Part shown: positions 50,482 to 50,803 of the stretch, piece by piece
Layout of the letters: every line of letters starts with the position of its first letter
Position numbering within the stretch: position 1 is the first letter of the stretch
DNA from: Octopus vulgaris
Lineage: Eukaryota
NCBI GenBank assembly: GCA_951406725.2
Contig: OX597837.1
Span: forward strand, 26,784,001-26,848,000
Direction of reading: 5' to 3'
Length of the DNA stretch: 64,000 nucleotides
The notes under the pieces: generated by a model
The model's database searches: none
Told to the model about the DNA's origin: nothing
The model's input: only the letters and a program-made list of their open reading frames with translations
Made by a program: the position numbers and the translations under genes

Positions 50482-50799
50482 CTAAACCTCGCTAAGATAA
50501 ATATTTCAATTACCTGAAGATTGACTGTAACCATAACTCGAATTATTACGAATTGGACAGCCATGAAACGATCGTAGTGTTTTACTCATTATATTTTATT
50601 AAATTTTTAATACTTTTGATATATATTTAAAATAATATAAATTAATTAATTTTATGTATTGGCTTAAGTTTTTCATTGTTTGATTTGCCTAATAGTGGTT
50701 TTATCTCTAATTTAATATAATATAATATTTTACTATAAAATTGGATTCAATCCTAAATCTGACTTTTCCCTGTAAGTTTGGATTTATTCCCTAATATTT

Positions 50800-50803
<4 letters not shown>
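50482..50803 (+). mobile_element. Short repeat family P2 (Penelope-like or retrozyme-like) ending in (TA)n
   Basis: Near-identical to 59969-60292; contains a hammerhead core. Confidence 0.75.
50509..50578 (+). ncRNA. Minimal type-I hammerhead ribozyme candidate
   Basis: Stem I ATTAC/GTAGT; core CTGAAGA (50514-50520); stem II TGACTGT/ACAGCCA; GAAA (50565-50568); then CGA-TC. Confidence 0.65.

What the first reader, a model, noticed from the sequence alone, without database searches (positions are those of the whole stretch)
50482..50803. Family P2: short element with an intact minimal hammerhead core
Seen in two copies (also 59969-60292): stem I ATTAC/GTAGT, CUGAAGA, an extended stem II (TGACTGT..CCA..TCG/CGA..TGG..ACAGCCA, one mismatch), GAAA, and a vestigial stem III. 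ACGATCGT is palindromic, giving an alternative dimer register with cleavage after UA. Established: Penelope-like elements and non-LTR retrozymes carry minimal type-I hammerheads that cleave as dimers. Inference: non-autonomous ribozyme-bearing retroelements. Both copies are on the plus strand, so they could cleave the inferred host pre-mRNA.
Basis: partly seen in the sequence, partly recalled or inferred. Interest (0 to 1): 0.7.

Follow-up and report, generated by a model that had tools for sequence, protein, structure and literature searches.

The report
Spliced Penelope leader retrocopies with hammerhead
These two 330-base repeats match the front end of a protein-coding Penelope-type jumping gene with its intron removed exactly at the splice signals, so they were likely copied from spliced RNA; they carry the hammerhead motif usual for this group, predicted to cut after GUA but untested.

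Summary
The two copies and the hammerhead motif are real. They are not a separate retrozyme. They are the terminal repeat (5' leader) of a Hydra-clade Penelope-like element: longer genomic copies carry a telomerase-like RT plus C-terminal endonuclease ORF, and a sister subfamily has intact 821-862-aa frames. In long copies a GT-AG intron (mostly 646-907 nt) sits just before the ribozyme; the window copies lack it precisely. The spliced junction has 219 exact genomic matches, and 30 of 30 sampled spliced copies start within the 26-nt first exon. The 3' ends fall at two sites 77 nt apart, as expected from the two internal RT start sites published for another Penelope element. The likely cut is GUA| (50576), not AUC| (50573): sister elements and 30 of 31 relatives fit that register. 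Copy 2's palindrome is imperfect. 5' junctions pile up just 3' of the cut site, a confounded hint of cleavage in vivo. No host gene was found, so cutting of host pre-mRNA is unsupported. This scan already reported spliced Hydra-clade leader copies on other DNA of this genome.

The parts
50475..50805 (+). Copy 1: spliced pseudo-LTR/5' leader plus 77-nt tail of a Hydra-clade Penelope-like element
   Evidence: Matches exon 1 + exon 2 of long RT/endonuclease-coding copies
50475..50500 (+). First exon (26 nt); its first bases are the inferred transcription start (Inr-like TCATT, motif recalled)
   Evidence: 30 of 30 sampled spliced copies start within or at most 6 nt before it; followed by GT donor in long copies
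50500..50501 (+). Exon-exon junction; intron of mostly 646-907 nt missing
   Evidence: 219 exact junction matches genome-wide against 0 control
50511..50579 (+). Type I hammerhead: stem I 50511-50513/50577-50579, core 50514-50520, U-U at 50521/50564, stem II 50522-50563, GAAA 50565-50568, palindromic stem III 50568-50575
   Evidence: Sequence; model from relatives; compensatory changes in sister subfamily
50576..50577 (+). Predicted cleavage site (GUA|G); untested
   Evidence: Register conserved in relatives and sister subfamily
50728..50805 (+). Tail between the two recurrent 3' ends (family positions about 254 and 331); inferred two RT start sites; ORF start lies about 60 nt further on in coding copies
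   Evidence: mechanism by analogy to PMC11167929
50806..50870 (.). (TA)n target microsatellite at the 3' end of copy 1
59969..60292 (+). Copy 2: same spliced leader plus tail, 7 nt shorter at the 5' end; junction after 59987; hammerhead core from 60001, predicted cut after 60063; stem III reads ACGATTGT

Best explanation
The two repeats are the intron-less 5' leader (pseudo-LTR plus tail) of a Hydra-clade Penelope-like retrotransposon, likely reverse-transcribed from spliced, uncut RNA and inserted separately into TA microsatellites. Shown: long copies have the order ORF (RT + endonuclease), 3' UTR, 26-nt exon, GT-AG intron, hammerhead, tail; the window copies equal exon 1 joined to exon 2. 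Inferred: RNA starts at the first exon and is spliced; the element's protein nicks (TA)n DNA and starts cDNA synthesis inside the RNA at one of two sites, about 254 or 331 nt from the start; when it uses these sites in the 5' leader it reaches the RNA's 5' end after only about 330 nt. Such copies lose the upstream sequence and the intron and are probably dead ends. The hammerhead is inherited from the parent. It would cut after GUA (50576), probably only as a dimer through the 8-nt palindrome or with help from the element's protein. It had not cut the RNAs that gave these two copies, since they span the site.
For: Long copies: open 745-aa frame and 5' repeat + ORF + 3' repeat arrangements; predicted fold matches telomerase RT best (3du5, E 1.4e-10); Hydra motifs DKT, CxCX5C, CxxC..E..N..CxH. 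Of 30 long loci, 26 keep the intron, 3 lack it, 1 is rearranged. Exact genome counts: spliced junction 219, retained donor 65, retained acceptor 182, controls 0. 30 of 30 spliced matches (29 insertions; first 30 by position) stop at the first exon. 3 of 100 position-ordered matches (2 insertions) join a different GT donor in the 3' UTR to the same acceptor, which splicing explains and microhomology does not. 20 of 30 best loci hold an inverted partial copy, 17 of these ending at positions 247-257. 3' ends cluster near 254-263 and at 331. Relatives: 52 of 79 metagenome loci have a sense-strand hammerhead hit, 2 antisense, about 2 after shuffling; 96% of cells paired, 118 double-sided changes. 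Sister subfamily: stem I CCAC/GTGG and palindrome ACAATTGT or ACGATTGT.
Against: No raw RNA reads: transcription start, splicing and strand were not seen directly; contigs of guessed RNA runs showed mainly an intron-retaining copy and one spliced join. No intact ORF of the window's own subfamily among 150 scored matches (longest 352 aa at >=88% identity), so the enzyme source is inferred (decayed parent, or the sister at about 80% protein identity). Pfam and PDB sequence searches recognised neither domain; the endonuclease call rests on motifs. The tail is 77 nt, not 30-40. In this subfamily the ribozyme looks weak: 3-bp stem I with a G-U pair, and a competing hairpin traps the core. A minority junction 4 nt shorter (L053, L292) fits microhomology switching, so not all intron loss is splicing.
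Confidence: 0.86

Rival explanations
1. A self-propagating non-autonomous element (retrozyme- or SINE-like): one spliced solo repeat became a master that is transcribed, processed by its ribozyme and copied in trans.
For: 219 exact spliced junctions; uniform length; retrozymes are proposed to derive from Penelope repeats (bioRxiv 10.64898/2026.07.22.740005, part 1 of 5 read).
Against: No direct tandem copies in 30 best loci. The stem I variants ATTAC, ATCAC and ATTAAC each occur in both spliced and intron-containing copies, so spliced copies arose repeatedly. Copies start about 100 nt before the cut site, not at it.
Confidence: 0.08
2. The intron was lost at DNA level or by RT template switching, and the short copies are ordinary 5'-truncated insertions.
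For: AGATA occurs on both sides of the intron, and a few copies have the junction expected from it (L053, L292). 5' truncation is common (35 of 100).
Against: The main junction keeps the bases up to the GT donor, which the microhomology route would delete; a second donor joins the same acceptor; random truncation would not stop 30 of 30 copies at the first exon.
Confidence: 0.04
3. Sub-question: the hammerhead of this subfamily is inactive, and the pile-up of 5' ends near the cut site comes from RT stalling at the RNA structure plus microhomology with (TA)n(TG)n targets.
For: Weak stem I, not the minimum-energy fold. 5 of 15 independent junctions at the cut site listed for contigs C1-C10 have (TG)n flanks that match the element's GTGT. 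The largest pile is 8 nt downstream, at a TA (68 against 17). PMC11167929 found no RNA-seq ends at the cut site of its element.
Against: Core and palindrome are kept across subfamilies with compensatory changes. Junctions without TA microhomology: 9 of 17 at the cut site against 1 of 68 and 1 of 39 downstream. TA/AT junctions drop several-fold upstream of the site.
Confidence: 0.45

Closest known systems
Hydra clade of C-terminal-endonuclease Penelope-like elements (Craig et al. 2021, PMC8557442; passages and supplement sheets read), including Hydra-1_Obim of Octopus bimaculoides
   Same: DKT, CxCX5C linker, no CCHH, CxxC and CxH around E and N, (TA)n targets, type I hammerhead in the terminal repeat; U-U next to the core is common in the listed Hydra hammerheads
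   Different: KWK instead of RWK; unit about 5 kb instead of under 3 kb; asparagine-rich insert between RT and endonuclease; long stem II; intron in the repeat and spliced copies. Hydra-1_Obim has another hammerhead and, by eye, another protein.
Hammerheads of metazoan Penelope-like elements (Cervera and De la Pena 2014, PMC4209133; parts 1-2 of 4 read)
   Same: Short stem I, long stem II, palindromic stem III for dimer formation, intron end next to helix I as in Drosophila virilis Penelope
   Different: Not a 'minimal' motif without helix III; lacks G10.1-C11.1; the acceptor lies about 10 nt before stem I, so splicing leaves the core pairing unchanged
Poseidon element PAc of Anolis (Frangieh et al. 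2024, PMC11167929; parts 1-2 of 4 read)
   Same: Two internal RT start sites bound the tail; AT-rich targets; uncut RNA is the main template
   Different: Here both ends lie before the start codon and 77 nt apart; another clade; no biochemistry here
Metazoan non-LTR retrozymes (defined in bioRxiv 10.64898/2026.07.22.740005, part 1 of 5 read; PMC7229834 seen only as a search listing)
   Same: Short, non-coding, type I hammerhead, Penelope-related
   Different: Not tandem, ends not at the cut site, identical to the leader of a coding element

Membership tests
Endonuclease-containing Penelope-like elements | Telomerase-like RT in a single ORF | tested here: met
   Predicted model (mean pLDDT 76) matches TERT structures best
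Endonuclease-containing Penelope-like elements | C-terminal GIY-YIG endonuclease | tested here: inconclusive
   YK..YIG, R, H, E, N and CRH motifs align with 18 relatives; Pfam gave no hit; domain not fold-searched alone
Endonuclease-containing Penelope-like elements | Direct pseudo-LTRs flanking the ORF, inverted 5'-truncated copy, optional tail | tested here: met
   (direct repeats); 20 of 30 loci with inverted arm; tail 77 nt
Endonuclease-containing Penelope-like elements | Spliceosomal intron retained in genomic copies | tested here: met
   Met for long copies (26 of 30); the window copies themselves lack it
Hydra clade | DKT motif, CxCX5C linker, no CCHH, CxxC and CxH around E and N | tested here: met
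Hydra clade | N-terminal RWK motif | tested here: inconclusive
   RIKWKA at the matching place; relatives have RWK
Hydra clade | (TA)n insertion preference | tested here: met
   3' flanks of the 30 best loci
Hydra clade | Generally under 3 kb | tested here: not met
   Start codon to 3' end about 5 kb in L071; described as a tendency, not a defining rule
Hydra clade | Phylogenetic placement with published Hydra proteins | not tested
   Published sequences were seen in the supplement but not used in a tree
Type I hammerhead ribozyme | Core CUGANGA, GAAA, UH | tested here: met
   A17 in 136 of 138 genomic motifs caught by a pattern that fixes part of the core
Type I hammerhead ribozyme | Three helices with covariation | tested here: met
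   stem I only 3 bp in the window
Type I hammerhead ribozyme | G10.1-C11.1 pair | tested here: not met
   U-U here; also U-U in 12 of 31 relatives and in published Hydra motifs
Type I hammerhead ribozyme | Self-cleavage | not testable with these tools
   Only indirect junction counts
Minimal hammerhead without helix III | No helix III | tested here: not met
   A-U and C-G pairs inside an 8-nt palindrome; self-duplex -10.0 kcal/mol in copy 1, -5.8 in copy 2
Non-LTR retrozyme | Tandem units each with a hammerhead | tested here: not met
   No direct tandem in 30 best loci; window copies 9.5 kb apart
Non-LTR retrozyme | Circular RNA | not testable with these tools
   No raw RNA reads offered

The most novel reading that the evidence does not exclude
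The genomic copies of this family are a fossil record of three sense-strand RNA templates used by one Penelope RT: unspliced read-through RNA (intron kept), spliced RNA copied to its start (the window copies), and RNA cut by its own hammerhead after GUA (copies that begin at or just after the cut). Intron retention in Penelope elements would then reflect which repeat on the RNA the RT starts from, with no need for an antisense template, and the ribozyme would be shown to cut in the germ line.
Probability: 0.35. Interest if true: 0.65.

Novelty: new variant of a known kind. Interest (0 to 1): 0.42.

Why it matters
The ribozyme itself is an expected part of a Hydra-clade element. The informative part is the anatomy of the copies. 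Penelope-like elements are known for keeping introns, and an antisense template has been proposed to explain this (PMC3846280, passages). Hundreds of precisely spliced copies, and spliced read-through copies, point to sense RNA and fit internal RT initiation. The excess of 5' junctions just past the predicted cut site gives a genomic test of whether these poorly active ribozymes cut in vivo, an open question in PMC11167929. The motif is missed by Rfam and the protein by Pfam, so such families are under-annotated.

Tried and rejected
Rfam: no hammerhead hit on the element; the whole-window list was dominated by microsatellite miRNA matches and 186 lower rows were not shown. Single-strand folding gave no signal. 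An upstream exon ending ATGAG was considered: 5 matches are better read as short fold-backs of the 5' end. The AG before the first exon as a used acceptor: no upstream exon seen in 30 copies. Pfam and PDB sequence searches for the ORF: nothing. Host gene: 150 of 257 open stretches of 55 aa or more scanned with Pfam, none above cut-off; contigs laid on 54200-59550 covered repeats only; strand of any host transcript remains open. RNA evidence: no RNA holder listed, contigs only. The ATCAC variant as sole proof of register was set aside because it also strengthens a competing hairpin; the sister subfamily and relatives carry the argument. One script caught nothing through a pattern error and was rerun. 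Literature searches for spliced or processed Penelope copies found no description; subscription papers, including the original Drosophila intron work, are not in the library, and most supplements were not read.

Full report
Observation. The window holds two copies, 50475-50805 and 59969-60292, on the plus strand, 317 of 322 nt identical, each ending in a TA run. No other copy lies in the window. Family positions below count from 50475 = 1.

The family. A search of the own genome (2.8 Gb, 227 contigs) gave 1650 candidates, of which 40 were scored, all 96-100% identical. A 19-mer from the 3' part has 6667 exact matches, shared by several subfamilies. Of the 30 best loci, 20 hold an inverted partial copy on the 5' side, and 17 of those arms end at positions 247-257; the window copies have none. 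In 95 position-ordered matches, 3' ends cluster near 254-263 and at 331. The host is probably an octopus: the nearest named protein match is an Octopus bimaculoides gene model, 64% over 14% of the query.

The parent. One locus ran further upstream; searching with that part gave long copies. They carry an ORF with RT and a C-terminal endonuclease region; one 5'-truncated copy has 745 open codons, and two have the repeat on both sides of the ORF. The predicted fold matches telomerase RT best, though Pfam and PDB sequence searches saw nothing. The motifs match the Hydra clade as described in PMC8557442 (passages; alignment). The published Hydra-1_Obim differs in hammerhead and, by eye, in protein. 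Among 150 scored matches to the N-terminus, the window's subfamily has no intact frame; a sister subfamily has frames of 821-862 aa, about 80% identical, and shares repeat positions 167-331 at 81-89%.

Splicing. In long copies a GT-AG intron with a branch-point-like CTGAT lies between positions 26 and 27: 26 of 30 loci keep it, 3 lack it, 1 is rearranged. The window copies are the joined form. Exact counts are 219 for the junction, 65 for the retained donor and 182 for the retained acceptor, with 0 in the controls; inverted arms count separately. All 30 of the first 30 junction matches start in the 26-nt first exon or at most 6 nt before it, which marks a hard 5' end, inferred to be the transcription start. 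Of 100 position-ordered matches to positions 111-130, 38 keep the intron, 24 are spliced, 35 are truncated after the acceptor, and 3 (two insertions) join a GT donor about 210 nt after the stop codon to the same acceptor. That last class implies spliced read-through sense RNA as a template.

Mechanism. PMC11167929 (parts 1-2 of 4) showed for a lizard element that RT starts inside the RNA at two sites that bound the tail, that targets are AT-rich, and that uncut RNA is the main template. The two 3' ends here fit that. A start at these sites in the 5' leader of a spliced transcript gives a 254- or 331-nt copy, as in the window; a start in the downstream repeat gives long copies that usually keep the intron. 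These steps are inferred. They argue against the antisense-template idea raised in PMC3846280 (passages).

The ribozyme. Among 79 metagenome loci encoding relatives (80 best of 367 confirmed), 52 have a sense-strand hammerhead hit, 2 an antisense hit, about 2 after shuffling. For 31 distinct motifs that I picked from those hits, 96% of cells pair with 118 double-sided changes; the motifs were selected for pairing, so this shows the register rather than proving function. 30 of 31 have C15.2-G16.2 and a GUH triplet. A model from them finds both window copies first and aligns them in the GUA register. In 138 genomic motifs, stem I variants ATCAC (25) and ACCAC (5) keep three pairs in this register and break the other. 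The 14 motifs found in 9 of 10 fetched sister loci have CCAC/GTGG (one CTAC) and ACAATTGT (6) or ACGATTGT (8), so copy 2's change matches a form found beside intact ORFs. U-U at 10.1/11.1 is common in the clade (12 of 31). Against activity: the window's stem I is 3 bp, the fold is not the minimum-energy one, and a 6-bp hairpin can trap the core. PMC4209133 (parts 1-2 of 4) reports no monomer cleavage and low dimer cleavage for such motifs.

Does it cut in vivo? Genome-wide counts of a TA run joined to the element: 17 at position 103 (first base after the cut), 68 at 111, 39 at 119. Junctions without TA microhomology are 9 of 17 (two share one flank), 1 of 68 and 1 of 39 (Fisher p 5e-7 for the first pair). 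In the listing for contigs C1-C10, read by eye, 26 independent junctions fell at 101-103 (15), 89-91 (5), 70-84 (6) and none at 92-100 (50 of 150 rows not shown). This fits a template end at 103 with joining at the next TA, but 5 of the 15 have (TG)n flanks that match the element, and RT stalling at the base of the structure would look alike. I put in vivo cleavage in this family near even odds.

Host effect. No host gene was identified. The copies are single and 9.5 kb apart, so cutting of a host transcript is unlikely and unsupported.

Earlier notes. My reading was fixed before the look-up. Four unreviewed notes describe spliced Hydra-clade leader copies elsewhere in this genome; a sequence look-up with this element found none. 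They are not independent evidence.

Verdict. A real hammerhead in a new Hydra-clade family; the short copies are spliced retrocopies of its leader. I found no description of such copies in the library searches, which miss subscription papers. Interest 0.42.

Noticed in passing
L317 (both arms), L356: Copies that join a GT donor in the 3' UTR to the acceptor before the hammerhead, skipping about 2 kb including the inferred start site.
   Followed up: partly
L283, L288, L294 and others: A subfamily with a 24-nt longer stem II has mostly lost the acceptor AG (14 AA against 5 AG) and gave none of the 24 spliced copies in the sample.
   Followed up: partly
L073-L077: Five copies begin with a 4-6-nt fold-back of their own 5' end, possibly the smallest form of the inverted arm.
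   Followed up: partly
L068:4926-7127 (residues about 410-497); L443-L452: Asparagine-rich insert between RT and endonuclease, absent from 18 relatives; similar inserts are described for rotifer Penelope elements (PMC3846280, passages).
   Followed up: no
L443-L452: Young sister subfamily with intact frames, a compact hammerhead, the acceptor kept just upstream of it, and a region of about 3.4 kb between stop codon and ribozyme that contains an internal inverted repeat.
   Followed up: partly
window 10392-10875, 39103-39586, 43378-43861, 55547-56063, 58053-58682, inverted at 278-864 and 24652-25074: Another dispersed repeat with 184- and 217-nt tandem units in both orientations.
   Followed up: no
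window 51250-51450 and ten other places; 3422-3562; 27580-28168: A SINE-like family of 11 copies; a long hairpin-forming inverted repeat, with a related half at about 50885-50960; a 19-nt minisatellite.
   Followed up: no
L443 near 8710, L445 near 7862: Two unrelated hammerhead-like motifs next to sister-subfamily insertions.
   Followed up: no
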